A stretch of DNA of 64,000 bases from Thermomicrobiales bacterium (GCA_965218235.1 OZ244595.1:1062561-1126560); one strand, 5' to 3'; shown: positions 11,349 through 64,000, numbered from the stretch's first letter. Numbers and translations are program-made. Notes: a model not told the origin generated them from the letters alone.

Positions 11349-11434
11349 GCTCAAGTGGCCTTTTGGAGCATAGGAGTCCGTGGCACCGGCAAATGTATCG
11401 TGCTACCCCGATGGTGCGTCCGATGTCCAGTTCG

Positions 11435-11620: not shown

Positions 11621-11666
11621 CTCGATGAGAGTTCGATCCGGATGCAGGACTCACTGGACAAACGTC

Positions 11667-12272
11667 ATGGTTGATACATCGCCTCTTAGACAGCAGCTCT
11701 CGTATTTACGAGAGGATTGGAAACAGAACAGCTCACTCGTCGTGCGCACAGCACTCGTCAACTATCGGCTGGGTAGGGGCGTTTCTCTATCCTCATTGCC
11801 AGCTCCGGCGAAGAGGATTGTACGACTTATCGGGGCGATTGTTGACGCGCTGATTGTGATACCAATGGGCTGCGGCAAGATATTCTCGACCTCCGAGATC
11901 GGCCCAGGGTTCATCATGGCTCACCGAATGACTGGTTCTGTCATCCACCCGCACGCTCACATCGGGAAGGCCGCCAAGATTTTCCATCAAGTGACCATCG
12001 GCAACGCCGGGAGCAAGAACGGAGGCGCCCGCGTGCCAATAATCGGCGACGGCGTCACGATTTATCCGGGAGCCATTCTGGTGGGAAAAATCACGATTGG
12101 CGACAATGTCGTGATTGGTCCGAACGCGCTGGTCAACCAGGACGTGCCGTCTGGCAGCAGGGTGGTGGCACCGAGGGCCACCGTACTCGCTTCCATCATT
12201 GATAGCCGTGCGGGCGAACTCAAGTATGAACAAGCCTGGGAGGTAGTGGCACGGATACCGCCCGACGATTGA
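11667..12272 (+). CDS. Hexapeptide-repeat O-acetyltransferase (serine acetyltransferase/EpsC-like)
   Basis: Left-handed beta-helix repeats IGKAAKIFHQVTIGN..., PIIGDGVTIYPGAILVGKITIGDNVVIGPNALV. The start is trimmed to the ATG at 11667 because the upstream part of the track ORF overlaps the fcl relic. Confidence 0.7.
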   Translation: MVDTSPLRQQLSYLREDWKQNSSLVVRTALVNYRLGRGVSLSSLPAPAKRIVRLIGAIVDALIVIPMGCGKIFSTSEIGPGFIMAHRMTGSVIHPHAHIGKAAKIFHQVTIGNAGSKNGGARVPIIGDGVTIYPGAILVGKITIGDNVVIGPNALVNQDVPSGSRVVAPRATVLASIIDSRAGELKYEQAWEVVARIPPDD

Positions 12273-12385
12273 CTGATAGTGCATACCCCGTGCCCCTCAG
12301 TCCGAGCGTCTGATGCTGTTCTGGCTCGCGAGACCACGGTAGAGAGATCACATCGGAACTGGAGAGCTAGCTAAGCAAAAGGGAG

Positions 12386-13072
12386 ATGCGTGAAATGACC
12401 AATGTTGAAGATTACCTCCGACTTCAATACGCATCTGGGGTTTCGGAATACACGTGGGGGGACCGTGCGAAGAATATTGCGACCTTACTGCTCCGTCCCG
12501 TCGAGCGAAGAAAGGCGGCTCGGTTGGTGGCGAAGGGTGACCGACCTTTACGGCTTCATCTCGGCTGCGGCAATACATACAAGGCCGGTTGGCTGAATAT
12601 CGATCTCGCACGTCCAGGGCGCACGCTAGACCTGAAGTGGGATTTACGCGCTGGATTGCCTTTTTCAAACCAAAGCGTTGAGTCGATTTTCTCAGAACAC
12701 TTATTTGAGCATATTCCCCTTCCCAGTGTCATGATCTTGTTGAAGGAGTGTCGTCGCGTTCTTGCGCCTGACGGTGTAATCCGGATCGGCGTCCCGGATC
12801 TCGAACGCTATGTTCGAGCCTATCTCGGCAATGATCCCATCATCGACGAAGTCAGGCCGGGACGGCCTACGAGAGCCATCGCGATAAGCGAGATCTTCTA
12901 CTTTCACAATCATCGCGCAGCGTACGACGCAGAGACCTTGTGCTTATTGTTAACCGAGTCGGGTTTCAGTAGCGCTGGTCAAGCAAGCTTTGGCCGGAGC
13001 TCAATCAGTCCAGCTCCAGACTCGCCCAACAGGCAACGGGAAACGTTGTACGTGGAGGCGATCGCGTCATGA
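12386..13072 (+). CDS. Class I SAM-dependent methyltransferase (Methyltransf_11/23-like)
   Basis: LRLHLGCGNTYKAGWLNID, SVESIFSEHLFEHI and ECRRVLAPDGVIRIGVPD. An alternative in-frame ATG at 12395 sits behind GGGAGA. Confidence 0.75.
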   Translation: MREMTNVEDYLRLQYASGVSEYTWGDRAKNIATLLLRPVERRKAARLVAKGDRPLRLHLGCGNTYKAGWLNIDLARPGRTLDLKWDLRAGLPFSNQSVESIFSEHLFEHIPLPSVMILLKECRRVLAPDGVIRIGVPDLERYVRAYLGNDPIIDEVRPGRPTRAIAISEIFYFHNHRAAYDAETLCLLLTESGFSSAGQASFGRSSISPAPDSPNRQRETLYVEAIAS

Positions 13073-13109
13073 TTCTTCTTAGTGTGAACAAATCGTCGGA
13101 TCCGATAAC

Positions 13110-15902: not shown

Positions 15903-17113
15903 AGCCACTACCGCGTGTTGTCTACTGGAACAATATCCCTAGTCCGTATGTGGTCGGGAGATTCAATGCCGTGGCGCGGCGTGGGAACATTGACCTCCAA
16001 GCGTGGTTCAACTCGCGTACGAATCCTGATCGAAGTTGGGATGTAATTGAAAGCCACTGGGAGTTTCCCGCGCGATACATTCCGTCCGTCCAGATCGCTG
16101 GGCAGTCGCTGCACTTGCCCTTCGCCGAGCTGCGTCAGTCGCAACCAGATCTGGTAATCTGCCTGTATAACCCGGTGTCGTTTGCGCTAGGAAGCGTCGG
16201 AATGGCCGCAAGCGGAGTTCGCTTCGCCTATCGTGTGCTCCCTACATACGGCAGCTGGGTGCGTCGCTCGACCGCCAAGGAGCTTTCGAAGAAGTTGCTT
16301 TTCCGCTTGGCCGATGCAGCGAAAGTACCTGGCCCGGAGGGCGCTGCTGTTGCTCTGCGTTACGGAGTTCCCGAAGAGCGGATTTTTGCCGTTCGCCAGT
16401 CCGTCGACGTGGATCACTTTGCGACGGCATCTGACGTGCCGGTCGTCGTACGTCGTAAAGAACGAGATCGCAGAGCCCTTCATGGATGCGTCTTCATCTA
16501 TGTTGGAAGACTCTGGCGGGGTAAAGGCCTCGATTACCTGTTTGACGCATTTGACCAAGTCCGCCAACACAATCCGGAAACTTCGCTGCTGATTGTAGGA
16601 GACGGCATTGACGAGGGACGCTATCGGACGCAGGCGAGGCAAAATCCGAATATCCACTTCGAGGGATTTGTGCAGCCAGCAGATATGCCGTCGATGTACG
16701 CGCTTGCGGATGTCTGTGTGTTCCCTACGCTTGGAGATCCTCACGGATTAGTGACGGAAGAGGCAATGGCTGCTGGGCTTCCTGTGATCGTTACGGAAGC
16801 GGCGGGTGACATTGATCGACGGTTACCGGACGGTGAGGCAGGTTTCATCGTTCCGCCGAGGTCAGCAGACGCCCTCGCTGCCCGAATGCTGGATCTCGCG
16901 AATGACGCTTCTATACGCCACCGATTTGCCCGATGCGGTCAAACACTGGTCTCATCACGTACACATGATGAATATGCGCTTGATCTTGAGGTTATGGTTG
17001 ATCGCGTTTTGTCTCTCCCCCGACGACGGCAACCCAGTCCAATAAACTCCCTGGCCTTCCGCTCCTTGCATACAGGCTTACGGCGGGATCCGGCACCTAT
17101 GGTGAGTCGATGA
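15887..17113 (+). CDS. GT4-family glycosyltransferase
   Basis: C-terminal GT-B motif FPTLGDPHGLVTEEAMAAGLPVIVTEAAG. An alternative start at 15899 gives an ATGA overlap with the upstream stop. Confidence 0.8.
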   Translation: MEKPMKPLPRVVYWNNIPSPYVVGRFNAVARRGNIDLQAWFNSRTNPDRSWDVIESHWEFPARYIPSVQIAGQSLHLPFAELRQSQPDLVICLYNPVSFALGSVGMAASGVRFAYRVLPTYGSWVRRSTAKELSKKLLFRLADAAKVPGPEGAAVALRYGVPEERIFAVRQSVDVDHFATASDVPVVVRRKERDRRALHGCVFIYVGRLWRGKGLDYLFDAFDQVRQHNPETSLLIVGDGIDEGRYRTQARQNPNIHFEGFVQPADMPSMYALADVCVFPTLGDPHGLVTEEAMAAGLPVIVTEAAGDIDRRLPDGEAGFIVPPRSADALAARMLDLANDASIRHRFARCGQTLVSSRTHDEYALDLEVMVDRVLSLPRRRQPSPINSLAFRSLHTGLRRDPAPMVSR

Positions 17114-18378
17114 GCGCGAAGGTGTTTTCGTCTGCGGGTCGCGATCAACCACCCGAGGTGAGGATGTCGTGGAAGCACGAATCGGAACAAGCAGGGTTGC
17201 GCGTACTGCAAGTGGTGCCTTCAGTTGGGATAAGCGAGGGAGGACTCGCTGTAGTCGTCGTTGAGCTTAGTGACGCCCTCCAACGCGCCGGAATGGCGGT
17301 GCAGATAGTTACGACGAACTCCGCCATACCCGGGCGTTCGGGGCAACCCCGCCGAAGCGTTGCAGAAACGGACTTGCCTTATGGCGCCGAAAACCTTGAC
17401 ATCCGTTACTTCCGAGTGCGGAGACCCTATCGCTTTCTGTTCGCCCCCGATATGGCGCGCGCGCTGAACACTTCGATCAGTTCCTTCGATCTTGTGCACA
17501 TCCATGGAATATGGAGCTTCTGCGCGCGTGCAAGTTGGAGAGCAGCCAGGCGCGCCGGCGTACCGATCGTCGTCTCTACACATGGGATGCTCGATCCATT
17601 CTTACTTGGCCGAGGAAGGGCGCAGAAGTTCATTGCACTAAACGAGTGGGTTCGACCGATGTTGCAAGGCGCCGCAGCCATTCATTGTACTTCGGAGCTC
17701 GAACACGACCAGATCTCCTCGTTTGCTCCTAACACCCAGCGCGCCGTGATTCCGAATGGTTTTCATCTCGACAGACTTGCCGTAGCGGCCGACTACGGCT
17801 CGTTTCGGCGCGAAATGGGAATCGGGGAGTCCTCGGCCATAGTGCTCAATCACGGTCGGCTCTCATATAAAAAGGGTTTGGACGTTCTTTTACGCGCATT
17901 CGCGAGGGTTTGTGACCAAGTCCAAGATTGTCGCTTGGTTCTTGTAGGTCCAGATGATGAGGGGATTCGAGCCGAACTTGAGGCACTGGCGAGCGATTTA
18001 GGGATCGGAAATGACGTTATATTCACGGGCGAGCTTTCCGGCGCAAAGCTGGCTAACGCGATTGCCGCTGCGGACGTGTGGGTACTCACTTCACACGCGG
18101 AAAACTTCGGAATGGCGGTCGTCGAGGCGATGTCCGCCGGTAAACCAACGGTGATTTCGAGTGCCGTCAATATAGCTCAGGATGCTGAGCAAGCGGGCGC
18201 TACTCTGAAAGTTGATGTCGATGCGAATGCTGCAGCATCGGCCATCGTCGAGTTGCTCAACGATCAAGAATTGAGCCGTGCCATTGGCCGCAGAGCGCGC
18301 CGGTTCGTCGAGCGATTCGATTGGGGAAAGGTTTCTGATCAATACATCTCGCTTTATCGGGAAGTAAGTGCCCGATGA
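17110..18378 (+). CDS. GT4-family glycosyltransferase
   Basis: LRVLQVVPSVGISEGG N-terminus. SHAENFGMAVVEAMSAGKPTVISS. An alternative start at 17164 (MSWKH) sits behind GAGGTGAGG. Confidence 0.8.
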   Translation: MSAKVFSSAGRDQPPEVRMSWKHESEQAGLRVLQVVPSVGISEGGLAVVVVELSDALQRAGMAVQIVTTNSAIPGRSGQPRRSVAETDLPYGAENLDIRYFRVRRPYRFLFAPDMARALNTSISSFDLVHIHGIWSFCARASWRAARRAGVPIVVSTHGMLDPFLLGRGRAQKFIALNEWVRPMLQGAAAIHCTSELEHDQISSFAPNTQRAVIPNGFHLDRLAVAADYGSFRREMGIGESSAIVLNHGRLSYKKGLDVLLRAFARVCDQVQDCRLVLVGPDDEGIRAELEALASDLGIGNDVIFTGELSGAKLANAIAAADVWVLTSHAENFGMAVVEAMSAGKPTVISSAVNIAQDAEQAGATLKVDVDANAAASAIVELLNDQELSRAIGRRARRFVERFDWGKVSDQYISLYREVSAR

Positions 18379-18406
18379 TGTCCGGCGCCGATAGTGCGCC
18401 GGACAT
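18378..18406. terminator. Perfect 11-bp stem hairpin right after the GT4 stop (possible terminator or attenuator, no U-tract)
   Basis: ATGTCCGGCGC-cgatagt-GCGCCGGACAT. Confidence 0.35.
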
Positions 18407-18532
18407 AGCAACCGAAGGAGTAGAAGGGTGTAGCCGAGAAGAATCCCATTTCATACTCGTGGCTCAACTGGCATTCAGAAACGGCTACTCCTAGCTCACC
18501 CGATTCGTAAGTACCCCAAGGAGACCTACAAC

Positions 18533-19642
18533 ATGGACCTTAACGGAAAGAACGTTGTTCTTGTATCAAGCTGGTCACAAAACATCGGCAACGCTTTCTT
18601 CAGTGTGTCGGGACGATGGATCATGGAACAGGCGGCCCCTGGCGCACGTGTCACATGGTTTCAAGACCAGCCCGGATATCGCACGTTTCATAACCAAACT
18701 AGGGGAAATCCTCAAAACCATGCGAGTCTGATCGCATCCCTCGATGTTGATTACCTCGTACTTCAGGGCCCGATGCTGACCTCCACCTTCCGCGCTATTT
18801 GGGAACCTTCGTTCCGTGCGCTGCGGGAGCGCGGCACCAAGATCGTGCTCCTTAGTGCCGGACTTTTCCGATACACCTCTGAGGAGATCGCTTCCGTGCG
18901 CGAATTCTTGTCCGAGTATCCGCCGGCCATCTTGGCGACTCGCGACTCAGTGACCTATTCTCACTTCCACGACCTGTGCGAAATATCCTACGACGGTATT
19001 GAGAGCGCGTTCTGCATTCCAGATGCTTATCAACCGCCCAAGATTGACTATCCTTCGTTTGCGGCGGTTTGCTTTGACCGCTATCCGGAGCCAGAGATTG
19101 TTATCGGCGGTCAGCCCTCACCATCCGCGCCAAATGGACGTAGCGGCAGCTTCGAATTCGAGGACGCGACCTGGAACTGGACGTTTCCACGGATCCCGTA
19201 CTTGCTCGCGAAGAAGGGACAAGGCGTTGCCTATCTCGGGGCTATGGCAGACCGAAGAAAGTCAATGCCTAACGCGTTGAATGGATTGGCAATCTTGCGA
19301 CCCGAGCACCGCACGAACCCTTTCATTGGTTGGAAAGTGTATCGCCGTCCCGGCGCAGTGGCCACGGATGAGCCGTATACCTATCTAGCCACGTACGCCA
19401 ATGCGGAGTTGACTCTAACTGATCGCGTCCACTCGGGCGTAGTTGCATTGGCGTACGGAACGCCGGCGATGCTCTTTGGAGCGACCCCGCGGGATGCACT
19501 CTTCGAGCGCATGGGAATCGCTGACATTCGGCGTCACCCGGTTACGCTTCCTGAAGAGCAGCGTGTGGCTGAGCGAGAAAAGCTGGTCGATTTCCTTCGA
19601 AGCGGACTTGAACGGCTCGAATCCCGGGGCCAAAGAAGCTAA
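18533..19642 (+). CDS. Polysaccharide pyruvyl transferase family protein (tentative)
   Basis: N-terminal NIGNAFF, mid RDSVTY and C-terminal LTDRVHSGVVALAYGTPAMLF resemble the PS_pyruv_trans pattern. RBS AAGGAGA lies upstream. Confidence 0.55.
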   Translation: MDLNGKNVVLVSSWSQNIGNAFFSVSGRWIMEQAAPGARVTWFQDQPGYRTFHNQTRGNPQNHASLIASLDVDYLVLQGPMLTSTFRAIWEPSFRALRERGTKIVLLSAGLFRYTSEEIASVREFLSEYPPAILATRDSVTYSHFHDLCEISYDGIESAFCIPDAYQPPKIDYPSFAAVCFDRYPEPEIVIGGQPSPSAPNGRSGSFEFEDATWNWTFPRIPYLLAKKGQGVAYLGAMADRRKSMPNALNGLAILRPEHRTNPFIGWKVYRRPGAVATDEPYTYLATYANAELTLTDRVHSGVVALAYGTPAMLFGATPRDALFERMGIADIRRHPVTLPEEQRVAEREKLVDFLRSGLERLESRGQRS

Positions 19643-53246: not shown

Positions 53247-54109
53247 GAGCGTGTCATGGACTCTGCGGGGGTCGTAAACTCAGCAAATGAGCACGATCTC
53301 CCGCAAGCCCTACCCGAGCGACGTGACGGACGACGAGTGGGCCTTCGTCGCCCCCTACCTGACGCTGATGACCCCGGACGCCCCGCAGCGCCGGCATGAT
53401 CCCCGCGAGGTTTTCAACGCCCTGCGCTGGATGGTGCGGACCGGCTCGCCGTGGCGCTATCTGCCCGGCGATCTGCCGCCGTGGGCAGCGGTCCACCAGC
53501 AGACGCTGCGCTGGATCGCCGCCGGCTGCTTCGAGGAGATGGTCCACGACCTGCGGGCGCTGCTGCGCGAAGCGAGCGGCCGCGATCCCGATCCCACCGC
53601 GGTGATCCTGGACGCGCGGACCCTGCGCGGCACCCCGGAGAGCGGGCACCGGGCCGGCTACGACGGGCACAAGAAGACCCGCGGCAGCAAGCTCCACGCG
53701 GCGGTCGACACGCTGGGGCACCTGCTGGCGCTGCGCGTGACGCCGGCCAACGATCAGGAGCGGGCGCAGGTGGGCGAGCTGGCGGACGCGGTGCAGGCGG
53801 CGACCGGCAACACCGTGGAACTGGCCTGGGTCGATCAGGGCTACACGGGGGAGGAGCCGGCTGACGAGGCGGAGGCACGCGGGATCGAGCTGGTCGTGGT
53901 CCGGCTGCCGGGAGCAAAGAAGGGCTTCGTCTTGCTGCCGCGGCGCTGGGTGGTGGAGCGCTCGTTCGCCTGGGCGACGCGCTTCCGGCGGCTGGCCAAG
54001 GACTATGAGCGCCTGCCCACGACCGTGGCCGGCTTGCATTTCGTCGCCTTTGCCTGCCTCATGCTTCACAAACTCTCGCTCCTGCCACTCGGAAGTCCAT
54101 GACACGCTC
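53247..54109 (+). mobile_element. Complete IS5-family insertion sequence (IS427-like size), about 0.86 kb
   Basis: Terminal inverted repeats GAGCGTGTCATGGAC (53247-53261) and GTCCATGACACGCTC (54095-54109) are perfect. They are flanked by TA on both sides (53245-46 and 54110-11). Confidence 0.85.
53287..54102 (+). CDS. IS5-family DDE transposase
   Basis: PYPSDVTDDEWAFVAPYL...REVFNALRWMVRTGSPWRYLP (DUF4096-type N-terminus). DDE_Tnp_1 body AVILDARTL...LHAAVDTLGHLLAL...VDQGYTG. Confidence 0.9.
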   Translation: MSTISRKPYPSDVTDDEWAFVAPYLTLMTPDAPQRRHDPREVFNALRWMVRTGSPWRYLPGDLPPWAAVHQQTLRWIAAGCFEEMVHDLRALLREASGRDPDPTAVILDARTLRGTPESGHRAGYDGHKKTRGSKLHAAVDTLGHLLALRVTPANDQERAQVGELADAVQAATGNTVELAWVDQGYTGEEPADEAEARGIELVVVRLPGAKKGFVLLPRRWVVERSFAWATRFRRLAKDYERLPTTVAGLHFVAFACLMLHKLSLLPLGSP

Positions 54110-56263: not shown

Positions 56264-56821
56264 ATGGACCTGGCGCTCGCTGTCCATCTGGTACACACAG
56301 TAGACCGACACTCGAATAAGTCTACCCTGGAGCCCTCGAGCCCTCAAGAGTTGATGCAGCTGGCCCAGCAGATCCGGACCAGTAATCCGCAACCCTTACC
56401 GATCGAGCCCGCTCGAGCCCCGACGAAGAGTCTCCGGCGACGGTTCTCTCCCCAAGAGATCGAAGATCTTGTAGCTCGATACAACGCTGGAGCGGCCATT
56501 CGGGCGTTGAGTTTAGAGTACGGTGTTTCGAGGAGTGGGCTTCGGCAGCTCCTCCAAGCTGAGGGTGTGACGTTGCGGGTACAAGGGATCATGCCGGAAG
56601 ATGCCGAAAAAGCGGTGCGACTTTACGAAACCGGGCTTACGATCAGGCAGGTCGTGGACCTGGTTGGCTACTCGTATGGCACGATCCGGTCAGCGCTCCA
56701 TGAGAACGGTGTCGCCATGCGAGCAGGCCGTGGCGGCATGGGCCACGCGCTGGAACACGGCCGACACCCGCACCAAGCTGCGCCGCCTCTACCCGACATA
56801 GGACGGTTGACAGACCACTAA
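56264..56821 (+). CDS. Tandem-HTH protein resembling the C-terminal half of small serine recombinases (no catalytic domain, likely relic)
   Basis: Two repeats: FSPQEIEDLVARYNAGAAIRALSLEYGVSRSGLRQLL and PEDAEKAVRLYETGLTIRQVVDLVGYSYGTIRSAL. No resolvase Ser-domain lies upstream. The start is uncertain. Confidence 0.4.
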   Translation: MDLALAVHLVHTVDRHSNKSTLEPSSPQELMQLAQQIRTSNPQPLPIEPARAPTKSLRRRFSPQEIEDLVARYNAGAAIRALSLEYGVSRSGLRQLLQAEGVTLRVQGIMPEDAEKAVRLYETGLTIRQVVDLVGYSYGTIRSALHENGVAMRAGRGGMGHALEHGRHPHQAAPPLPDIGRLTDH

Positions 56822-57943
56822 GTACATTCACAGAATTTCTGCGGGATGTGGCTGTACGCCAATGATCGAGCGCATCTGTTTGGGTACGTGATTGTACCGG
56901 TCAAAGAAGGCGGTTGCGGCGGCGATGAGCGCCTTGACGGTCGGGAAGAGTTCGCAGTGGGTGACTTCCCGCCGGAAGTGCCGCCAGAGCATCTCGATCG
57001 GATTGAGCCATGGGCTGTAGCTTGGAAGATAGAGCAGGACGAGACGGCCCGCCGCACCACGCACCACCGCCTCGATCTCATCGCCTTCGTGGGTGGAGGC
57101 GTTGTCCCATGCCACATAGATGGTTCCGGCGGGATGCTTCTCCACCAACGCCTCAAGGAGTTCGGCGATTTCGCGCCGTCGTTTATGCCGGCGGATGAGG
57201 ACGACGGTCTGGCCGGCATGGTAATCCACCGCCCCAATGCCGTACCGTTTCTGTGGCTGGCCAGGCGTTGAAATCATCACCTGCTGGCCTTTGGGACTCC
57301 ACATGGCCGTGAGCGTTGGTAGCCAACTCAGGTTGAACTCGTCGGCATAGTAGAAGTGATCATCGGGGGCGAGGTGGTCACGCATGGCTTCAATCGTCTT
57401 TTTTTGAGCGCGTACGCCGGGTCGGGGCTGGTGATCGTGTGCTGCGGCCGGCTCAGCACGATGCCGACGGCTTTCAGATGCAGGCGCACGGTCTCGTCGG
57501 CAACCCGGATCCCGGTTTGCTCCGCCAGGTAGTCGGCAAGTCGCTGCAAGGTCCACAGTGAGAACGGCAGATCCAGGCTCCGGGGCCGGCGCCGCACGGC
57601 GGCAAGCAACTGGTCGACATAGGCCGCGGTGACCTTGCTGGGCGCTCCGGGATGGGGCTGGTCGCGCAGCCCTTCGATCCCCTCACTCAGGTAGCGTTTG
57701 AGCCAGCGTCGCACCGTGTCCTCGCTCATGCGCACGATGCCGGCAATGGCCGCCGCCGTTAGGTGCTGCTCCCCGGCCAACAACACCATCTGGACCCGGG
57801 TCCGCAGGCGGACATCGCGGCAGGTTCGGTACACCTCGTCCAAGGCGTCAAGCTGCGTCGAGGTGAGTTCGGGAATGCGTACGGGCTGCATCGCCGCCTC
57901 CTTTTTCTCAGCATACACCCCGCAACTTCTCTTTGGTTGTACT
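56821..57943 (-). mobile_element. Complete IS630-family insertion sequence, about 1.12 kb
   Basis: Imperfect terminal IRs AGTACATTCACAGAATTTCTGCGG versus the reverse complement AGTACAACCAAAGAGAAGTTGCGG. Flanked by the TA dinucleotide typical of IS630/Tc1 (56819-20 and 57944-45). Confidence 0.85.
56828..57891 (-). CDS. IS630-family transposase encoded in two frames joined at an A7 run
   Basis: OrfA (HTH) reads MQPVRIPELTS...PDPAYALKK. OrfB (DDE) reads KKTIEAMRDH...YADEFNLSW...VAWDNASTH...YLPSYSPWLNPIEMLW. The frames differ by -1 at CTCAAAAAAAGAC (plus-strand T7 at 57399-57405). RBS AAGGAGG precedes the ATG at 57891. Confidence 0.8.
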
Positions 57944-58149
57944 TAGATCGTCTGCGAGAACGAAACGGCCCTGCGGCAGTCTACAGTGTCAACAGCAAGG
58001 ACTATCCTTCCATCCGTAGGCCTGCCGAGCTGATCTCGACTATTGACGATGGGGCTGGCGCCAGGACCACTTCGGGTTTCCAGGCGGCCGACCGATTACT
58101 TGGGTGTGAGGCGATCTCTACCTCATAGCCTGGGACATGCTAGGGCGGG

Positions 58150-58980
58150 ATGCATTCTGATGGACAGGCTCGACACGGGCGAGGAGTGAGACCGAAGAGC
58201 ATGACGGAGCAATCGGCTCGGCCACCGACCACCCCAAAGCGGCAACTCAAGCAGTACAAGCGCCGCCCCGACGTCGATCTCCAGATCGACGAAGCGCTCA
58301 CCCTCGATCCCGCCGACCTGCGTCGGCGCGTCAATATCGTCTCCCCGACCGAGGAGGGATATTTCAAGGCTGAAACGATCGTCTACTTGCTACGCGAAGC
58401 TCACGCTGTGGGCGATCAGGAGCGCGTGGGCTGGCTTTGGACCTCACTCGTCAGCCGCTCCAAGGGTTACGTCAGAGGGTGGCTGGGTGGCTTGTCTCGC
58501 GAGCTGCAGGGGGAAGCCGTCGACGCTGTCTGGGATCGACTCATCGGGAAACTGCTGGCGCCTGATCACAGCGGGGACTACTACGAGGTTTCCTACTGGG
58601 ACGCGCTGGAGAAGCGGTCCGTCGACGTCTTCCGGAGCTTCACGGCGAAGACGAGTGCTTATCAAGAGACAAGTGTATCCGCCGTCCAGCTCCGCGCCGC
58701 GGACGACGCGGCTGAGCTAGATCCGGTCGATTTGGACCGTTCCTGGCAGCCCGAGTTTGCCACCCTCAACCAGGATGGGAGTCAGAGGATTCTCGCCCTC
58801 ATCCCCGAGCAGTACCGAGAGGCCTTCTACCTCTACGCCGTCGAGGGCTGGCCACTCTCGAGCTCAGATCCCCACCGACCGTCACTTTGCAAGAAGTTCA
58901 ACAGAACACCGGAAACGATACGGACGTGGCTGAGGCGGGCCCGCGCCGCTGCCAAGGAAGGGCTTGGAGAGCAACCATGA
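58150..58980 (+). CDS. Sigma-70-family-like protein (divergent, ECF-sized)
   Basis: The C-terminal IPEQYREAFYLYAVEGWPL...SLCKKFNRTPETIRTWLRRARAAAKE looks like a region-4 HTH. A region-2-like helix AVDAVWDRLIGKLL is present. An alternative start lies at 58201 (MTEQSARPP). Confidence 0.5.
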   Translation: MHSDGQARHGRGVRPKSMTEQSARPPTTPKRQLKQYKRRPDVDLQIDEALTLDPADLRRRVNIVSPTEEGYFKAETIVYLLREAHAVGDQERVGWLWTSLVSRSKGYVRGWLGGLSRELQGEAVDAVWDRLIGKLLAPDHSGDYYEVSYWDALEKRSVDVFRSFTAKTSAYQETSVSAVQLRAADDAAELDPVDLDRSWQPEFATLNQDGSQRILALIPEQYREAFYLYAVEGWPLSSSDPHRPSLCKKFNRTPETIRTWLRRARAAAKEGLGEQP

Positions 58981-59624
58981 GCGAGCGACCGCAGGACGAG
59001 CGCCTGGAGCGCATCCTCAACGAATTCGTGACGGAGGTGCCGTCACCGCACGCCTCCCACGTTGGAGCCTGGATGGCTCGCTTCCCCGAGTACGGTGACG
59101 AGATCATGGCTTTCGCCGCAAGCTGGGCCATGATGAGGGTGTCGCCCCGCAGCCCTAACGTGATCACCGAAGAAGAGGTCGAGGCGCGGGGTCTGGCTGC
59201 ACTCGAACGGTTGCGTTCAGAGTCGGGTGCGTCGAACCATGGAGCGGCATCGGGTGGCATCACGTCGTTGATGCCACCCGGCTCCTCGCTCGACGACCTG
59301 GCCGAACATGCTGGCCTGAGTGTCCCTCTGTGGCGGCAGATCAGCCTGCGCCAGATCGCGAATGTGCCACCCGATGTGATCAAGGACATAGCGGCAGCTA
59401 TCCAGACGTCGTATCAGGCGGTGGCTGACTTCATTCGACAGGGACCACCCCTCGCCGCCCCTGGACATTACAGGGCGGCGGAACAACCCCGGGTAAGCGA
59501 ACCACTCGACTTCTTCGAGGAAGTCCGGCTTGACGACGACCTCACAGAGAGCCAGAAAGCCCGCCTCCTCGCGATGGGTTCGAACACCGCAGAGGATGGC
59601 CTCACCGGCGGACTGATCCGATGA
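58977..59624 (+). CDS. HTH-containing protein (ImmR/XRE- or anti-sigma-like partner), hypothetical
   Basis: ATGA overlap with the upstream stop. Central LDDLAEHAGLSVPLWRQISLRQIANV helix-turn-helix-like segment. 215 aa. Confidence 0.45.
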   Translation: MSERPQDERLERILNEFVTEVPSPHASHVGAWMARFPEYGDEIMAFAASWAMMRVSPRSPNVITEEEVEARGLAALERLRSESGASNHGAASGGITSLMPPGSSLDDLAEHAGLSVPLWRQISLRQIANVPPDVIKDIAAAIQTSYQAVADFIRQGPPLAAPGHYRAAEQPRVSEPLDFFEEVRLDDDLTESQKARLLAMGSNTAEDGLTGGLIR

Positions 59625-62600
59625 ATGACTGGAGTGCGGAGCGACGTGCCGCCAGGTCGCTCCGCACTCGAGCTGGGGCCGAACATCTCTCGCTCGCTTC
59701 CGACGTGATCGCGGCCATCGCGATATTGACCAAGGTGAAGTCGTCGAGCGTCCGCGAGGGGCGTTCCCTTCTGGACGGCGGTCAAGCCAAGCTTGATATC
59801 GACGCGAAGCGAATCTGGTACAGCGCCGCGATCGAGCCCTCGGTACTGCCATTCTTCCTCGCCCACGAGTACGCGCACCTCGAGCTCAATCATGGCGGGT
59901 GCCGAGGTAGAGCGGGCGACGTCGACGTCGAGGCCACCGGCACGGAGATGGACGCCGGCATCGAGCGGGTTCAGGGCTACAGCCCACAGGAGCGACGAGA
60001 ACGAGCGGCCAATATCTTCGCCCAAGAACTGTTGCTGCCGACCCCGCTCCTGCGTCGGTGGTTCCTGGACGACGGGCTGGGCGCTACCGCGATAGCGAAC
60101 CGCGTCAGGCTCGACGTGGGACTCGTTCGCCGCCAGCTGATGGCCGCGCTCCTCGACGTGACCAACGACGCCGCTGTCCAGGAGGATGGTAGCAACGAGG
60201 CCGACGACGAGGTCATGGGTGCGGGTAAGGTTGCGCCGACGACGGACACCGTCCCGGCCGCTCTGGACGACAGCCAGGCCGCCGCCGCGTACGTCGACCA
60301 GGGCCCCTTCCTGCTCGAGGCTGGCCCGGGAACCGGGAAGACCCGGACGCTGATCGCACGCATCCTCCACCTCCTCGCACGGGGCGCCCGGCCTGACCAG
60401 ATCGTGGTGCTGACCTTCAGCAACCGAGCGGCAGCGGAGATCCGGGATCGGGTGGCCCTGACCATGCCGGGAGCCGAGGCGGACCTATGGGTCGGCACGT
60501 TCCACGCCTTCGGCCTTGAGCTGCTTCGCCAGTATGGTCCCCGGATCGGTCTGCCCAAGCAGCTGGACATACTCGACCCGTTCCGGGCACTGCAGTTCCT
60601 GGAGGAGAACCTGCTGCAGCTCGGGTTGGCCCACTACCAGCAGCTCTCGCGCCCGTCACAGCCGCTGCGCGACATCGCGAAGGCCATCTCGCGGGCCAAG
60701 GACGAGCTCTGCGAACCCGATGACTATCGCGGGCACGCCGAGAAGATGTTGATCCGGGCCCAGGAGCGGCGGGATGACGAGGCCATCCTCGTGGCGGAGA
60801 AGGCGATCAAGGTCGCCCACGTCTACCGCTTCTATCAGGATCACCTGGAGCGCAGCGGACTGGTCGACTTCGGTGACCTGATCGTCCGGACGGTGAAGCT
60901 CCTACGGGACGACGCCGGGTTGCGGGACGAGGTTCGCGACCGGTACCGCTACGTCCTCGTCGACGAATACCAGGACGTCAACCACGCCTCCACCGAGCTG
61001 GTCCGGGAACTGGCGGGAGCAGGGGAGGGGCTATGGGTCGTCGGCGACCCACGTCAGGCCATCTACCGCTTCCGTGGTGCCGACCCGAGCAACGTCTCCC
61101 GGTTCACCGAGCACTTCCCGACGGCTAGTCGATCAGCTCTGCGCTTTCAACTACCGCTCTCGCCCTGTGATCATCGAGGCCGTGTCGGGCCTCGCCGGCG
61201 TCATGAAGGCCGCCGACGGGTCAGTGCCTGAGCCCTGGCAGTCGACGCGGGTCGACACGCGTGGTGAGATAGGCCTCGGTATCGCCGCCACGTTCGAGGA
61301 CGAGATGGCCGGCATCGTCGCGGCTATCCGGCAGTACCAGGCGGCCAAGGTGCCGTTCAGGGACCAGGCGGTCCTCTGCCGCACCCATACGATCCTCGGC
61401 CGCGTCGCCGGGGCGCTCAAGGCGGCCGGGATACCCACGCAGTACTTTGGCAACCTGTTCGAGCGGGAAGAGACGCGCGACATGCTGGCGCTCCTCTCGC
61501 TGGCGGCCGAGGCCGACGGCGTCAGCCTGATACGCGTGGCCACCTTGCCCGAATACGCCATCCCGGCCGCCGATGTCGCCCAGCTGCTCGACGCGGCCGG
61601 GGACCGCGCGATGGCCTTCCCGCAGGCACTCTCGCTCACGTCGACCCTGCAGGATCTCTCCGCTGAAGGTCGCGCTGGTTTGGAGCGTCTCGCGGACCAT
61701 CTGGGAGATGTCCCCTTCACGACCGGCCCCTGGGGGTTCCTGAGCCGCTACCTCCTAGAGGTGAGCCAGTACCTCGCGTCCCTGGCCCGTGACGCCAGTG
61801 TCGAGGGGGCCATCAGCCGGTCAGCCCTACTGGCCTTCCTCGACGTTGTTCATGGCTATGAGCGGGCCAACCGGACACCGGACCTGCCGGGCAGGGATGT
61901 GGCTCAGTTGAAGTCCGGCTTCCTCAAGCATGTGCGCGACCTGCAGGTCTACGGCGAGGAGCGACAGTACCGGCAGCCACCCGACCTGCCTGATGGCGTC
62001 GACGCGGTCCGCGTGATGACCATGCACGCCAGCAAGGGGCTGGAGTTTCCGGTCGTGTACCTGCCCTACCTTGGTGGGCAGTACATACCGCAACCCAGGC
62101 AGTCCGACGACTGCCCGCCGCCGGACGGGATGGTCGCCAACCCGGTGTCGGACAACGACACCGACGAGCTCAATGTGTTCTTCGTCGCCGTGTCGCGGGC
62201 GCAGGATGCGCTCTTGCTGTCCCGGGCCGAGCGGTATGGCGATGCGTCCAGCAACGCGTCAAAGTTCCTTGCACACGTCCAGCCCTGGTTGCCCCGGAAG
62301 GCAGACAGCTCGCCGTGGTGGCTTTCGCAGGCCGATCCTCCCATGCCAAGGTCGGGGACAGGAGCCAACCTCGGACGTGACCTGTTCGGTGACCGGGAGC
62401 TGGAGACCTACATCCGGTGCCCCCGACAGTATTACTACGATCGCGTATTACGTCTCGAGGGGCGGTTCGGCGGGACGGCATCGCTGCGGTTCCACCGGTC
62501 GATCCAGCGCACCCTGCGTTGGGTCGAGGGTGTCCACACTGGACCAGCCGGTCAGGCGCCGGCGAACGCCGAGGTCCTTGACCAGCTGGACGCGATCTGG

Positions 62601-63116
62601 GCGGAGACCGGCCCGGTCACGCACCCCTACGAGCCGCTCTACCGGACTGAGGCCAGGCGGATGGTACTGCTGGCCGCGGGCTGGCTGCACCAGCGCGCGG
62701 GGACCTTTGAGGAAGTCACGCTGGAGATCCCGGTCGGCGATGCCCAGGTCCGGTTCCGGCCACACCAGGTCGAGCGGATCGGCACCTCCGACGCGAGGAT
62801 CCGGCGGATTCGCACGGGTCGCGTGCCGCGGAAAGCTCCTGACGACGACCGCGATGCTCTCTACATGTTGGGGACCGGCCAGATCGGGGGCCGCGTGGAC
62901 GCCGAGGCGATGTACCTTGGCGGGGCTGAGGTAAAGATCGAGCCGATCAATCTCTCCCCGAAGAAACGTGCTACACGCATCGAGCACTACCGTGAGGCCA
63001 TCGAGGGCATCAGAGCTGGCGAGTTCCCGGCTAGGCCCAGCAGCCGGCAGTGCCCAGGCTGCCCGTTCCTCTTCATCTGCCCTGCGCCGGAGCCACCCAC
63101 ACTCCCGGCCGGCTGA
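59621..63116 (+). CDS. ImmA/IrrE-like Zn-peptidase + UvrD/PcrA-type SF1 helicase + Cas4/AddB-like 4-Cys PD-(D/E)XK nuclease fusion. The reading frame is broken once near 61.12-61.15 kb.
   Basis: Peptidase motifs FFLAHEYAHLELNHG (HExxH) and ERAANIFAQELLLP. Helicase motifs I AGPGTGKT, Ia VLTFSNRAAAEI, II LVDEYQDVN and III VVGDPRQAIYRFRGA are in the 59621..61231 frame. Motif IV NYRSRPVI, HASKGLEFPVVYL and FVAVSRAQDAL are in the 61074..63116 frame. The C-terminus has YIRCPRQYYY ... RQCPGCPFLFICP. ATGA overlap with the upstream gene. Confidence 0.75.
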
Positions 63117-63256
63117 CTACTTCCGGTTTTTCTGACGGCTCCCGATTACTCCAGTGTGAGGGGATGTCGCCGGCGCCGTGCCGGCGCCCCGCACCGGTCG
63201 GCTGTCTCGCTGACCGCTTATTGGACCGCCCTCACCAGGGCAAGGAGACCGTCACC

Positions 63257-63568
63257 ATGGTCAACCCGACCACCATTTTGCGGCCGATTAAGCCGCGCAA
63301 GGAGATCAAGGTCACCGTCCGCTACCCGGCCGCCGCCAAACCCTTCAAGGACAACAACGCCGCCATCGACGAGACTGTCGGTGAGCTCAAGGTCCGGGTG
63401 CTGCGCGCGTTCGGCCTCGACGCCGGTGGCGACGCCGTGAGCTATCAGCTGTTCCACGGGCGGGCCGCCCTGGATGAAACCCGCACCCTCGGGTCAATCG
63501 AGGCCAACGAGGGCGATGCTGACCGCGAGCTTCAGCTGAAGTTCGCGCAGCAGATCACGCAGGGCTGA
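63257..63568 (+). CDS. Small beta-grasp (ubiquitin-like) candidate ending in Gly-stop
   Basis: 103 aa. RBS AAGGAGA lies 8 nt upstream. Alternating beta-strand pattern EIKVTVRY...TVGELKVRVLRAFGL...SYQLFHG...LQLKF. The terminal residues are QQITQG followed directly by the stop. Adjacent to the E2-like ORF. Confidence 0.55.
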   Translation: MVNPTTILRPIKPRKEIKVTVRYPAAAKPFKDNNAAIDETVGELKVRVLRAFGLDAGGDAVSYQLFHGRAALDETRTLGSIEANEGDADRELQLKFAQQITQG

Positions 63569-63571
63569 TCG

Positions 63572-64000
63572 GTGGACCAGCAGCTAGCCGCGCTCAACCT
63601 TCAGCTGGACCTGGAGCAGATCCGCCAGGAGGTCCTCCCGGCGGAACTGGATCGCTGGGCGATTGCGTTGGTCGGTCCTGTCTGCCTCGACGTCAGCCTC
63701 TCGCCTGGTCGCGACCCCGTCGAGCGCTACCAGGCCCGACTGACTTGGCCGGACTACCCGGACCGGCCACCCTCGGTCCGCTTCGTCGAGCCCGCGACGG
63801 GCCGCCTCGACCTGAGCCGGGCCTGGCCCGATTTTCCCGGCGTCCGCCCGCCGCAGGATATCTCCGCCCCCTGGACCAGCGACGGTCACGCAGCCCACCC
63901 CGAGTGGCACGCTGATTCCCGCTACCGGTGGTCCAGCCACGGCAACCCGCTGCTCCGGATCCTCCGCACGCTCCAGGAACAACTGGACGACGAATACCTA
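63572..64000 (+). CDS. E2/UBC-fold-like protein, 5' partial (runs off the window), Ser at the expected active-site position
   Basis: A GTG lies 3 nt after the Ubl stop, in the same frame, open to the window end (143 codons). It is not in the ORF track because it has no stop. RWAIALVGP...ARLTWPDYPDRPPSVRFVEP...AWPDFPG...DISAPW parallels the E2 pattern W.a.I.GP...F...YP..PP.V.F...HPN...G.IC. Confidence 0.55.
   Translation, partial: MDQQLAALNLQLDLEQIRQEVLPAELDRWAIALVGPVCLDVSLSPGRDPVERYQARLTWPDYPDRPPSVRFVEPATGRLDLSRAWPDFPGVRPPQDISAPWTSDGHAAHPEWHADSRYRWSSHGNPLLRILRTLQEQLDDEYL

What the first reader, a model, noticed from the sequence alone, without database searches (positions are those of the whole stretch)
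59621..63116. Triple-domain fusion: ImmA/IrrE-type metallopeptidase + UvrD-like helicase + Cas4-like iron-sulfur nuclease domain
- Seen: HEYAH plus the E..AN.FA.ELL.P signature at the N-terminus. A complete SF1 motif set I-VI follows. The C-terminus has a Cys (YIRCPRQYYY) and a distal CPGCPFLFIC, giving the C...CxxCx5C pattern of Cas4/AddB nucleases.
- Where D-x-K is expected, the sequence reads IRRIRTGR, so the nuclease may be inactive.
- Inference: a DNA-end or ssDNA-tracking motor could allosterically gate a regulatory protease. This would be a one-polypeptide version of DNA-damage-activated ImmA/CapP proteases.
Basis: partly seen in the sequence, partly recalled or inferred. Interest (0 to 1): 0.7.

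Follow-up and report, generated by a model that had tools for sequence, protein, structure and literature searches.

The report
Protease-helicase switch for ubiquitin-like defence
A gene fusing a regulatory protease to a DNA motor and a disabled nuclease (broken here by one extra base) belongs to a widespread three-gene cassette, not described in any paper I could search, that includes its own sigma factor, sits in front of bacterial ubiquitin-like anti-phage operons, and probably switches them on when abnormal DNA is sensed.

Summary
The three domains are real: M78 peptidase, UvrD-type helicase, and a PD-(D/E)XK fold with four Cys. However, 59621-63116 is not one ORF. One extra T in TTT (61145-61147), inside helicase motif IV, splits it into two frames. 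A sister contig (L085) and more than 100 homologs carry an intact ~1,130-1,165-aa gene.

The architecture is common, with about 400 clusters at 50% identity across many phyla, yet no paper I could search describes it. Family-wide, the peptidase and helicase motifs and the four Cys are invariant, while the nuclease (D/E)xK motif reads R-x-R, so the nuclease is probably dead.

The gene always follows an ECF-like sigma gene and a fast-evolving ~214-aa gene. In 23 of 24 evaluable loci this cassette precedes a ubiquitination-like operon (Type II Bil, as here, or Type I/II Bub).

One bipartite promoter-like motif (TTCCGGTTT-N13-CGATTA) lies upstream of the sigma gene and again just after the fusion's stop codon, upstream of bilA.

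Best reading (inferred, untested): a DNA-sensing, helicase-coupled protease releases a dedicated sigma factor that turns on Bil/Bub. This would be a new variant of the ImmA/CapP principle.

The parts
58070..58111 (+). Promoter-like bipartite motif P1 (CTTCGGGTTT-N13-CGATTACT-N3-GTGTGAGG), about 90-115 nt upstream of the sigma-like gene
   Evidence: One of only 2 matches in 64 kb at up to 3 mismatches, with 0 expected. Conserved in L081, L082 and L085. An equivalent site lies upstream of the sigma gene in L084 and L007.
58201..58980 (+). ECF-like sigma factor gene (259 aa from ATG 58201; alternative starts GTG 58186 and ATG 58150)
   Evidence: Sigma70_r4_2 at 27 bits, hit by 13 of 17 family members. 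PDB profile hits are all sigma factors. hhalign against sigmaE region 4 gives probability 82%, E=1e-5. An AF2 model (pLDDT 65.6) matches ECF sigmas, with sigmaE region 2 at TM 0.74 and region 4 at TM 0.68. Present in 21 loci.
58977..59624 (+). Fast-evolving 215-aa protein, translationally coupled on both sides (ATGA overlaps); candidate anti-sigma factor or repressor and candidate substrate of the peptidase
   Evidence: Conserved position in 22 loci. Only sub-threshold XRE-HTH similarity: HTH_31 E=0.04 and PDB XRE proteins E=0.2-0.7. No similarity to a CapH-like protein.
59621..61144 (+). Fusion gene, 5' part (reading frame of 59621): M78 peptidase domain (aa 1-190, nt 59621-60190), linker, and UvrD helicase N-terminal half (from aa 216, nt 60266)
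   Evidence: Pfam Peptidase_M78 and UvrD-helicase. HExxH and ERExxNxFAxExLLP are invariant in 87 homologs.
61145..61147 (+). Frameshift site: TTT where intact relatives have TT, giving a +1 shift inside helicase motif IV (..ALRF|NYRS..)
   Evidence: It is the only frame-breaking indel relative to L085.
61148..63116 (+). Fusion gene, 3' part (reading frame of 61074): helicase C-terminal half (to about aa 900, nt 62321) and a PD-(D/E)XK-fold domain with 4 Cys and R-x-R in place of (D/E)xK (aa 915-1164, nt 62364-63113)
   Evidence: Pfam UvrD_C and PDDEXK_1. Weak Cas4 hits at the C-terminus. C933, C1144, C1147 and C1153 are invariant; R1062 and R1064 are nearly invariant. Fold matches are UvrD/PcrA, then AddA, AdnA/B and RecB.
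63120..63161 (+). Promoter-like motif P2 (CTTCCGGTTT-N13-CGATTACT-N3-GTGTGAGG), 4 nt after the fusion's stop codon and 96-137 nt upstream of bilA
   Evidence: An equivalent site lies 5-54 nt after the fusion stop in L081, L082, L085, L084, L007, L002, L004, L005 and L088.
63257..63568 (+). bilA-like ubiquitin-like protein gene (103 aa, ending ...ITQG-stop)
   Evidence: 77% identical to the L081 gene at the same position. A terminal Gly is present. No direct Pfam or PADLOC hit. Orthologous positions in L084, L086 and L087 carry BilA_UBL_2.
63572..64000 (+). bilB-like E2 gene, cut off by the end of the window
   Evidence: 58% identical to L081 bilB, whose product is recorded as BilB-like. Sister contig L085 continues with BilB, BilC (PADLOC 47.7 bits) and BilD (PADLOC 86 bits).

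Best explanation
The finding is a frameshifted copy (or mis-assembled read-out) of a conserved ~1,164-aa protein. That protein has an active-looking ImmA/IrrE-type M78 zinc peptidase, an active-looking UvrD-type SF1 motor, and a RecB/Cas4-fold domain. The last domain keeps a four-Cys (iron-sulfur-type) site but has lost the catalytic (D/E)xK.

The gene is the third in a cassette: ECF-like sigma factor, then a ~214-aa protein, then the fusion. The cassette lies directly upstream of a ubiquitin-like conjugation operon, here a divergent Type II Bil.

Proposed mechanism:
1. The sigma factor recognises a bipartite promoter (about TTCCGGTTT-N13-CGATTA) in front of its own cassette and in front of bilA.
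2. The ~214-aa protein holds the system off, either as an anti-sigma factor or as an operator-binding repressor.
3. The helicase plus dead-nuclease/Fe-S module loads on abnormal DNA, such as ssDNA, DNA ends, phage DNA or damaged DNA.
4. That activates the fused peptidase, which cleaves the inhibitor.
5. The sigma factor is freed and induces Bil, with positive feedback on the cassette.

Shown here: the domain content, motif conservation, synteny, cargo association and duplicated motif. Inferred: the sigma activity, the inhibitor role, the DNA sensing and the cleavage.
For: Domains and conserved catalytic motifs. Confident full-length model of the 79%-identical homolog (pLDDT 89.4, pTM 0.90) with a disordered linker between the peptidase and the helicase.

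The cassette is conserved in 21-22 loci from Chloroflexi, Acidobacteria, Alpha- and Gammaproteobacteria and Verrucomicrobia. Stop and start codons overlap, which indicates one operon.

The cargo is Bil or Bub in 23 of 24 evaluable loci. Type II Bil: window, L001-3, L007, L042, L081/82/84/85, L086-88. Type I Bub: L004, L005, L017. Type II Bub: L008-13, L018.

Sigma identity. The duplicated promoter-like motif appears exactly twice in 64 kb with 0 expected. It recurs at the same two positions in distant loci, with 42 plus-strand against 10 minus-strand regex hits in 526 kb.

M78 peptidases of this family are known to cleave a neighbouring regulator on a DNA signal. PprI/IrrE is activated by direct ssDNA binding (PMC10904395, title and abstract). 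CapP-CapH is described that way.
Against: No experiment exists. The ~214-aa protein has no significant similarity to anti-sigma factors, XRE repressors or a CapH-like protein.

The sigma2 domain is seen only at fold level in a modest-confidence model built from 5 close sequences. No sequence method detects region 2.

The motif upstream of the sigma gene was found only in the Type II Bil-linked clades. In Type I Bub-linked cassettes it lies inside the sigma gene, and in several proteobacterial loci the regex finds nothing.

The regex was derived from some of the same sites it then recovered. Only L002, L004, L005 and L088 are independent recoveries.

The cassette was seen only with ubiquitination-like cargo, whereas known regulators also serve CBASS and other systems. 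That leaves room for a direct role in the Ubl pathway.

The window copy is frameshifted, so it may do nothing in this organism.
Confidence: 0.55

Rival explanations
1. Same cassette, different wiring. The ~214-aa protein is a DNA-binding, degenerate XRE-type repressor sitting on the conserved GTGTGAGG element just downstream of the -10-like box. The peptidase cleaves it exactly as CapP cleaves CapH. The sigma-like protein only supplies promoter recognition.
For: The weak central HTH signal: HTH_31 in 3 of 12 members, and the PDB XRE proteins 3kxa and 2ofy as best though non-significant hits. In the window clade the shared motif extends beyond the -10-like box (CGATTACT-N3-GTGTGAGGSGAT) at both sites. 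M78 peptidases classically pair with XRE repressors.
Against: All HTH scores are below significance. There is no similarity to the CapH-like protein of L084. The gene's position directly after a sigma gene, with overlapping codons, is the typical anti-sigma position (established knowledge of ECF sigma operons). The GTGTGAGG extension was not seen in distant loci.
Confidence: 0.2
2. The fusion protein is an effector or working partner of the ubiquitin-like pathway rather than a regulator. It might be a translocase that finds phage DNA or particles and recruits Ubl conjugation, a target of conjugation, or a provider of an extra Ubl-processing or deconjugating peptidase.
For: In this sample the cassette associates exclusively with Bil and Bub operons. 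Bil operons lack an E3 or other target-recognition factor (10.1101/2024.11.21.623953). A large ATP-driven motor seems costly for a mere sensor.
Against: It would not explain the dedicated sigma gene or the duplicated promoter-like motif. Most characterised Bil and Bub operons function or occur without this cassette, with other regulators in the same position. Bil/Bub already encode a JAB peptidase for Ubl processing. The nuclease is catalytically degenerate.
Confidence: 0.15
3. In this particular genome the gene is a genuine, recently inactivated pseudogene, and the locus is decaying.
For: The window sequence carries the extra T. An IS630-type element lies just upstream of the cassette. In sister contig L085, bilD is split into 442 + 60 aa and is followed by a transposase fragment.
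Against: There is a single 1-nt homopolymer-length difference and no other lesion. Synonymous to non-synonymous codon changes against L085 are 17:15 upstream and 76:76 downstream of the site, so the downstream part shows no extra relaxation. Differences fall mostly at third codon positions (46/43/117). The related contigs are low-coverage metagenome assemblies (L085's name ends in '_6x_l'; the split bilD may be the same kind of error), where such indels are a common artefact (inference). Either way this concerns only the window copy, not what the family does.
Confidence: 0.35
4. It is an ordinary double-strand-break repair helicase-nuclease of the AddAB/AdnAB/RecB kind, lying next to unrelated genes by chance.
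For: After UvrD/PcrA, the fold matches are AddA, AdnA/AdnB and RecB. The C-terminal Cys pattern resembles AddB and Cas4.
Against: The nuclease (D/E)xK is replaced by RxR across the family. There is no partner subunit. An N-terminal M78 peptidase is present. NCBIfam scores are far below every equivalog cut-off, for example recB 90.7 against 696 and addA 83-84 against 708-861. Synteny with the sigma-like gene and Bil/Bub is conserved across phyla.
Confidence: 0.03

Closest known systems
CapH + CapP (and the related ImmR-ImmA and DdrO-IrrE/PprI pairs): an M78 metallopeptidase that cleaves a neighbouring repressor when DNA damage or ssDNA is sensed
   Same: An M78 peptidase with intact HExxH and the downstream Glu motif. 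It sits immediately upstream of Bil/Bub-type operons, where CapH+CapP is found for 15% of Type II Bil and 31% of Bub operons. A DNA-derived signal is plausible, since PprI binds ssDNA directly (PMC10904395).
   Different: The peptidase is fused to a full SF1 helicase and an Fe-S/dead-nuclease domain, not to a small sensor domain. The neighbouring protein is not a recognisable XRE repressor. A sigma-like gene is part of the cassette. The cassette is co-oriented with its cargo, whereas capH/capP are divergent from bilABCD.
ECF sigma / anti-sigma pairs controlled by regulated proteolysis (for example sigmaE-RseA with DegS/RseP)
   Same: A small sigma with sigma4 and probably sigma2, followed by a co-transcribed small protein. 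It has a likely autoregulated promoter and a protease in the pathway.
   Different: Everything here is cytoplasmic and DNA-linked. The protease is an M78 enzyme fused to a helicase and encoded in the same operon. The sigma is longer (~260 aa), and region 2 is undetectable by sequence. The main text of the ECF reclassification paper mentions no helicase, M78 or ubiquitin context.
AddAB / AdnAB / RecBCD helicase-nucleases and Cas4
   Same: A UvrD-like SF1 motor followed by a RecB-family PD-(D/E)XK fold. The fold carries an N-terminal Cys plus a C-terminal CxxCx5C, as in AddB and Cas4.
   Different: The catalytic (D/E)xK is R-x-R in all 87 homologs, and the motif II Asp is His in the window clade. 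The protein is a single chain with an extra peptidase domain and a different genomic context.
CapW/BrxR and CapK + CapS, other DNA-damage-responsive regulators of Bil/Bub and other defence operons
   Same: The same genomic niche (directly upstream of Bil/Bub) and the same modular association with different cargo types.
   Different: The proteins are unrelated: a WYL repressor, and a kinase plus STAS-wHTH repressor. These regulators act by derepression, not through a dedicated sigma factor.
GajB (Gabija UvrD-like helicase)
   Same: The best PADLOC hits (174 bits) come from the shared UvrD core.
   Different: There is no GajA partner. GajB has neither a peptidase nor a nuclease-fold domain. The match covers only the helicase core.

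Membership tests
ImmA/IrrE (Peptidase_M78, PF06114) | HExxH zinc site plus the downstream conserved Glu helix (E..AN.FA..LL.P); score above the Pfam gathering cut-off | tested here: met
   34.3 bits against a cut-off of 22. H82, E83, H86, E127, N131, E136, L138, L139 and P140 are invariant in 87 homologs.
ImmA/IrrE (Peptidase_M78, PF06114) | An adjacent XRE-type HTH substrate/repressor | tested here: inconclusive
   The adjacent 215-aa protein gives only HTH_31 at E=0.04 and PDB XRE hits at E=0.2-0.7. hhalign against a CapH-like protein was negative.
SF1A UvrD/PcrA/Rep helicases | Motifs I, Ia, II, III, IV, V and VI, and the four-subdomain fold | tested here: met
   All motifs are present and invariant in the family. 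Foldseek against UvrD/PcrA gives E about 1e-34.
SF1A UvrD/PcrA/Rep helicases | A continuous open reading frame in this window | tested here: not met
   A +1 frameshift at 61145-61147 lies between FPTASRSALRF and NYRS.
PD-(D/E)XK nucleases of the RecB/AddB/Cas4 type | The fold or profile match | tested here: met
   PDDEXK_1 at 63.6 bits, E=3.6e-17. Weak Cas4 hits over the C-terminal 67 residues.
PD-(D/E)XK nucleases of the RecB/AddB/Cas4 type | The catalytic D ... (D/E)-x-K triad | tested here: not met
   The (D/E)xK position reads R1062-x-R1064-T-G, nearly invariant in 87 sequences, on predicted strand 1057-1064. The motif II Asp is kept in at least 90% of the family but is His in the window, P0001 and P0002. 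The residue correspondence rests on motif order and predicted secondary structure. No sequence alignment to a solved nuclease could be obtained.
PD-(D/E)XK nucleases of the RecB/AddB/Cas4 type | The four-Cys (Fe-S) pattern C...CxxCx5C | tested here: met
   C933, C1144, C1147 and C1153 are invariant. Whether a cluster is actually bound cannot be tested here.
CapH + CapP regulator pair | A stand-alone M78 peptidase plus an XRE HTH repressor, divergently transcribed from the cargo operon | tested here: not met
   The peptidase is part of a 1,164-aa fusion. The partner is not a recognisable XRE protein. The cassette is co-oriented with the cargo.
ECF-type sigma-70 family factor (the 58201-58980 product) | Region 4 (-35 binding HTH) | tested here: met
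   Sigma70_r4_2 in 13 of 17 members. PDB hits are only sigma factors. hhalign against sigmaE region 4 gives probability 82%. TM 0.68 to sigmaE region 4 bound to DNA.
ECF-type sigma-70 family factor (the 58201-58980 product) | Region 2 (core binding, -10 recognition) | tested here: inconclusive
   No sequence signal. At fold level, TM 0.74 to sigmaE region 2 and a 200-column alignment to full-length sigmaE, but from a model with pLDDT 65.6.
ECF-type sigma-70 family factor (the 58201-58980 product) | A cognate bipartite promoter, typically also in front of its own operon | tested here: met
   The same motif lies at 58070-58111 and 63120-63161 and at the same two positions in L081, L082, L084, L085 and L007. 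Function was not tested.
Type II BilABCD operon (cargo) | Gene order Ubl - E2 - JAB peptidase - E1 | tested here: met
   The window holds the Ubl (terminal Gly) and a partial E2. Sister contig L085 continues with BilC (PADLOC 47.7 bits) and BilD (86 bits). L084 BilD scores 564 bits. Pfam BilA_UBL_2, BilB-like and BilD_N are recorded in L084, L086 and L087. The window clade is a divergent member, with no direct Pfam or PADLOC hit for its BilA and BilB.
AddAB / AdnAB / RecBCD | A score above the equivalog cut-offs, a partner subunit, and an active nuclease | tested here: not met
   NCBIfam scores of 83-91 bits against cut-offs of about 700-860. No partner gene is present. The nuclease motif is lost.

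The most novel reading that the evidence does not exclude
The cassette (ECF-like sigma, ~214-aa inhibitor, M78-UvrD-dead-nuclease fusion) is a previously undescribed fourth class of regulator for bacterial ubiquitination-like immune operons. It is the first in which an ATP-driven DNA translocase is physically coupled to a regulatory protease, and the first whose output is a dedicated sigma factor rather than relief of a repressor. It would turn recognition of foreign or broken DNA directly into transcription of Bil/Bub.
Probability: 0.4. Interest if true: 0.8.

Novelty: new variant of a known kind. Interest (0 to 1): 0.72.

Why it matters
Bil and Bub are the bacterial counterparts of eukaryotic ubiquitin and ISG15 antiviral conjugation, and how they are switched on is an open question. 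Three regulator types are known (CapW, CapH+CapP, CapK+CapS), and all respond to DNA damage.

A conserved cassette that couples a helicase to an M78 protease and a private sigma factor would add a mechanistically different input, active DNA tracking rather than passive ssDNA binding. It would also add a different output, a sigma factor with positive feedback.

The hypothesis is immediately testable. There is a defined promoter motif, a candidate substrate, clear active-site residues, and intact homologs in cultured Pseudomonas, Aeromonas, Kluyvera and Sphingomonas strains.

It also gives an example of a RecB/Cas4-type Fe-S nuclease fold that appears to be kept as a non-catalytic DNA-binding module.

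Tried and rejected
- My first repair of the frameshift joined the frames at 61123|61125. Alignment with homologs showed the true site is the TTT at 61145-61147, so I re-did it.
- Programmed frameshifting is rejected. Sister contig L085 and all homologs encode a single ORF, with TT at that site.
- PADLOC and NCBIfam give only generic GajB, PcrA, RecB and Cas4 similarity, and no named system.
- Word-index homolog searches for the two small proteins found only close relatives. I therefore built diverse sets from fetched loci by tblastn and HMM.
- Profile and single-sequence searches of the C-terminal domain against PDB sequences found nothing significant. The inactive-nuclease call therefore rests on motif order, conservation and predicted secondary structure.
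None mentions this fusion or cassette.
- Burroughs et al. 2009 and 2011 are not held, and the Bub paper's Table S1 is not held. An earlier in-silico mention, or a listing of these genes as 'CapP', cannot be excluded.
- Organism identification failed. The exact-match look-ups carry no names.
- A 30-mer comparison between the two intergenic regions was not significant in most proteobacterial loci.

Full report

Partly. Pfam confirms the three domains far beyond chance: Peptidase_M78 at 34.3 bits (curated cut-off 22), UvrD-helicase at 231.5 bits, UvrD_C at 103.1 bits and PDDEXK_1 at 63.6 bits.

The interval 59621-63116 is nevertheless not one ORF. It is 3,496 nt long, and the ORF list shows two overlapping ORFs in different frames, 59621..61231 and 61074..63116. 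The closest homologs (79% identity) read FPTARRSALRFNYRS where the window reads FPTASRSALRF and then leaves the frame.

Removing one T from the TTT at 61145-61147 restores a 1,164-aa ORF. An independent metagenome contig, L085, is 96.5% identical over window 56289-64000 and carries the intact 1,164-aa gene. The inserted T at 61146 is the only frame-breaking difference.

Differences from L085 lie mostly at third codon positions (46/43/117). Synonymous to non-synonymous codon changes are 17:15 upstream and 76:76 downstream of the site. The lesion is therefore very recent or an assembly error. L085 is a '6x' contig whose own bilD is split 442 + 60 aa. I cannot decide between the two without reads.

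**2. What the protein family is**

A search of 5.8 billion proteins returned at least 120 full-length proteins (about 1,117-1,186 aa) with the same Pfam domain set. A search with the family-specific N-terminal 215 residues against 1.84 billion cluster representatives found 403 clusters at E<=1e-3 and 181 at E<=1e-10. About half of the top 150 are full length and the rest look like fragments.

Genome hits span Chloroflexi, Acidobacteria, Alpha- and Gammaproteobacteria (including Pseudomonas, Aeromonas, Kluyvera and Sphingomonas isolates) and Verrucomicrobia. So the architecture is common.

In an 87-sequence alignment the following are invariant:
- the peptidase site (H82, E83, H86, E127, N131, E136, LLP);
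- the helicase motifs (GPGTGKT, DEYQD, NYRS, HASKG);
- four cysteines (C933, C1144, C1147, C1153).

Where RecB/Cas4-type nucleases have (D/E)-x-K followed by T/S-G, the family has a nearly invariant R1062-x-R1064-T-G on the predicted core strand 1057-1064. The motif II Asp is kept in at least 90% of members but is His in the window clade.

A caveat applies here. I could not obtain a sequence alignment to a solved nuclease, so the residue correspondence rests on motif order and predicted structure.

An AlphaFold2 model of the intact 79%-identical homolog is confident (pLDDT 89.4, pTM 0.90), with a disordered linker (192-210) after the peptidase domain. Its best structural matches are UvrD/PcrA/Rep, then AddA, AdnA/AdnB and RecB. 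PADLOC and NCBIfam give only generic helicase and Cas4 similarity.

**3. The surroundings change the picture**

In close and distant homologs the gene lies in one conserved layout:
- a sigma70-region-4-containing gene of about 260 aa;
- a gene of about 214 aa;
- the fusion gene;
- a ubiquitin-like protein, an E2, a JAB peptidase and an E1.

The last four are a Type II BilABCD operon as defined by Chambers et al. (10.1101/2023.09.26.559546). In the window these genes are 58201-58980, 58977-59624, the fusion, bilA (63257-63568, ending in Gly) and a bilB cut by the window end (63572-64000).

Profile HMMs find the sigma-like gene in 21 and the ~214-aa gene in 22 of the 24 loci scanned that carry the fusion gene. 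The exceptions are L006 (which has only the ~214-aa gene), two Ktedonobacteria loci (L014, L015) and one contig too short to judge (L016). L086-L088 were not scanned with the HMMs but show genes of matching size in the same positions.

The cargo downstream is not always Bil:
- Type II Bil in 13 loci: window, L001-3, L007, L042, L081/82/84/85, L086-88.
- Type I Bub (Multi_ubiq+Prok-E2_E, JAB+ThiF, DUF6527) in L004, L005 and L017.
- Type II Bub (DUF6791- or E2-ThiF fusion, DUF6527) in L008-L013 and L018.
- Unclear in one place, with no Pfam records.

The operon definitions come from 10.1101/2024.11.21.623953. PADLOC's Bil models confirm BilD in L084 (564 bits), and BilC and BilD in sister contig L085 at 47.7 and 86 bits.

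**4. The sigma-like protein and its promoter**

A profile of 17 family members matches only RNA polymerase sigma factors in the PDB, over region 4 (best E=3e-4). Thirteen of 17 hit Sigma70_r4_2.

An AF2 model from only five close sequences is of modest quality (pLDDT 65.6). It shows an N-terminal helical domain, a 40-residue disordered linker and a C-terminal domain. Its top ~20 Foldseek matches are all sigma factors, mostly ECF types. They include full-length sigmaE (200 columns, probability 1.0), sigmaE region 2 on -10 DNA (TM 0.74) and region 4 on -35 DNA (TM 0.68).

Independently, the two intergenic regions of the locus share one motif, CTTCSGGTTT-N13-CGATTACT-N3-GTGTGAGG, at 58070-58111 and 63120-63161. 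These are the only two matches in the 64-kb window at up to 3 mismatches, with none in 100 shuffles.

A relaxed form (TYCSGKTY-N12-14-CGAY) lies 5-54 nt after the fusion's stop codon in L081, L082, L084, L085, L007, L002, L004, L005 and L088. It lies 66-131 nt upstream of the sigma gene in L081, L082, L084, L085 and L007. L003 has a variant shared by both of its sites.

Two non-identical half-sites at fixed spacing, present in front of the sigma operon and in front of the cargo, are what a dedicated autoregulated sigma factor would produce. This is an inference, and no binding was tested.

There are three limits. The pattern was partly derived from the sites it then recovers. Several proteobacterial loci give no hit. 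And in Type I Bub-linked cassettes the upstream copy lies inside the sigma gene.

**5. The ~214-aa protein**

It evolves fast (18-26% identity between clades) and has few invariant residues. It shows only sub-threshold XRE-HTH similarity in its centre and none to a CapH-like protein.

Its position is the classical anti-sigma position. It comes directly after the sigma gene and directly before the protease gene, with overlapping stop and start codons. That is the only evidence for that role.

**6. Mechanism proposed**

Shown here: an intact-looking regulatory peptidase and motor, a degenerate nuclease that keeps its Cys site, a three-gene operon with a sigma-like protein, an exclusive link to Bil/Bub cargo of three types, and a duplicated promoter-like motif.

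Inferred: the helicase plus Fe-S module detects abnormal DNA. This activates the M78 domain. The M78 domain cleaves the ~214-aa inhibitor (an anti-sigma factor, or alternatively an operator-bound repressor). The sigma factor then transcribes its own cassette and the Bil operon.

The precedents are ImmA-ImmR, IrrE/PprI-DdrO (PprI is activated by direct ssDNA binding; PMC10904395) and CapP-CapH. Together with CapW and CapK+CapS, these occupy exactly this position in front of Bil and Bub operons.

I put 0.55 on the regulatory-switch reading, 0.2 on the repressor-wiring variant, 0.15 on a direct effector or partner role in Ubl conjugation, and 0.03 on an ordinary repair enzyme. Separately, I put 0.35 on the window copy being truly dead.

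**7. Comparison with the known, and novelty**

It works like CapH+CapP but fails that family's defining features: a stand-alone peptidase, an XRE partner and divergent orientation. It resembles AddAB/AdnAB in fold but lacks the nuclease triad and scores far below the equivalog cut-offs. The sigma-like protein is ECF-like, but region 2 is supported only structurally.

None of ten full-text searches, nor the Bil, Bub, CapK/CapS, ECF-classification or Iyer 2006 papers, mentions this fusion or cassette. Two older Aravind-lab papers and the Bub supplementary table are not held, so an earlier in-silico note cannot be excluded.

I rate it a new variant of a known kind: protease-gated, DNA-responsive control of defence operons, with a new sensor (a helicase) and a new output (a sigma factor).

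**8. Verdict**

The interpretation points in the right direction, and context makes it considerably stronger. The real unit is a seven-gene locus (58070-64000 and beyond), not a lone fusion gene. Interest is 0.72.

Noticed in passing
window 56828-57918 (- strand): An IS630-type element, with two overlapping ORFs whose L085 counterparts carry DDE_3 and HTH_23/28/29 hits. It lies between an HTH gene and promoter motif P1, about 150 nt upstream of the motif. The same insertion, 99.6% identical, is present in sister contig L085. It does not interrupt the motif.
   Followed up: partly
window 56889-64000 compared with L085: Mosaic divergence. The two contigs are almost identical from 56889 to 60093 (4 mismatches; the sigma and 215-aa genes are 100% identical). 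They then diverge from about 60094, inside the fusion gene, peaking at 61989-62438 (the helicase C-terminal part and the start of the nuclease-like domain) and continuing through bilA and bilB (93-96% identity). This suggests a recombination boundary inside the gene, or faster evolution of the sensor and cargo part.
   Followed up: partly
window 56264-56821 (+): A 185-aa protein with HTH_58 and HTH_7 (resolvase-type HTH) hits. A homolog lies upstream of the cassette in L082 (43% identity) and L085. It is unknown whether it belongs to the system.
   Followed up: partly
L004 4992, L005 9048, L017 9090: In cassettes linked to Type I Bub, a copy of the TTCCGGT-N-CGAT motif lies inside the 3' part of the sigma-like gene, about 200 nt upstream of the ~214-aa gene, rather than upstream of the sigma gene. 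It is conserved between Gammaproteobacteria and Verrucomicrobia. It may be an internal promoter or a coding constraint.
   Followed up: no
L085 1047-5166 and 14196-19266: The sister contig places the locus in a defence-island-like setting. An HNH protein and a DEAD/ResIII helicase lie upstream, and a type I restriction-modification system (HsdM, HsdS) lies downstream. bilD there is split into 442 + 60 aa and followed by a DDE_3 transposase fragment. L086 and L087 also have restriction-modification genes beside the locus.
   Followed up: partly
L084 1-748, L086 15143-16279, L088 3356-4591: Classical XRE-HTH plus Peptidase_M78 genes, either as a pair or as a single 378-411-aa fusion, occur within a few kb of the cassette in three loci. 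Islands can therefore hold both the stand-alone and the helicase-fused M78 types.
   Followed up: no
L014 5131-8559, L015 10001-13567, L006 10001-13732: Three loci break the pattern. Two Ktedonobacteria copies (31% identity) have no sigma-like gene, no 214-aa gene and no Ubl genes nearby; their neighbours are a NYN/OST-HTH protein and an FtsH-like protein. L006 keeps a 214-aa-like ORF but is followed by a methylase-like gene, HicB and BrxL.
   Followed up: partly
window 10656-19642 (+): The low-GC stretch (53-57% against about 67%) is a polysaccharide or O-antigen-type biosynthesis cluster. It encodes methyltransferases, a hexapeptide transferase, a Wzy_C/flippase-like 930-aa protein, GT4 glycosyltransferases and a pyruvyl transferase. 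It is preceded by a sugar transferase, a GT4 enzyme and GDP-mannose 4,6-dehydratase (6305-9617). This is ordinary, and probably horizontally acquired.
   Followed up: yes
window 53287-54102 (+) and 53254-54105 (-): A 271-aa ORF whose sequence looks like an IS5/IS4-type transposase. This is my reading of the translation and was not tested with a tool. A nearly full-length antisense ORF overlaps it, which is typical of high-GC DNA. Together with the IS630 element, it marks the region as rich in mobile elements.
   Followed up: no
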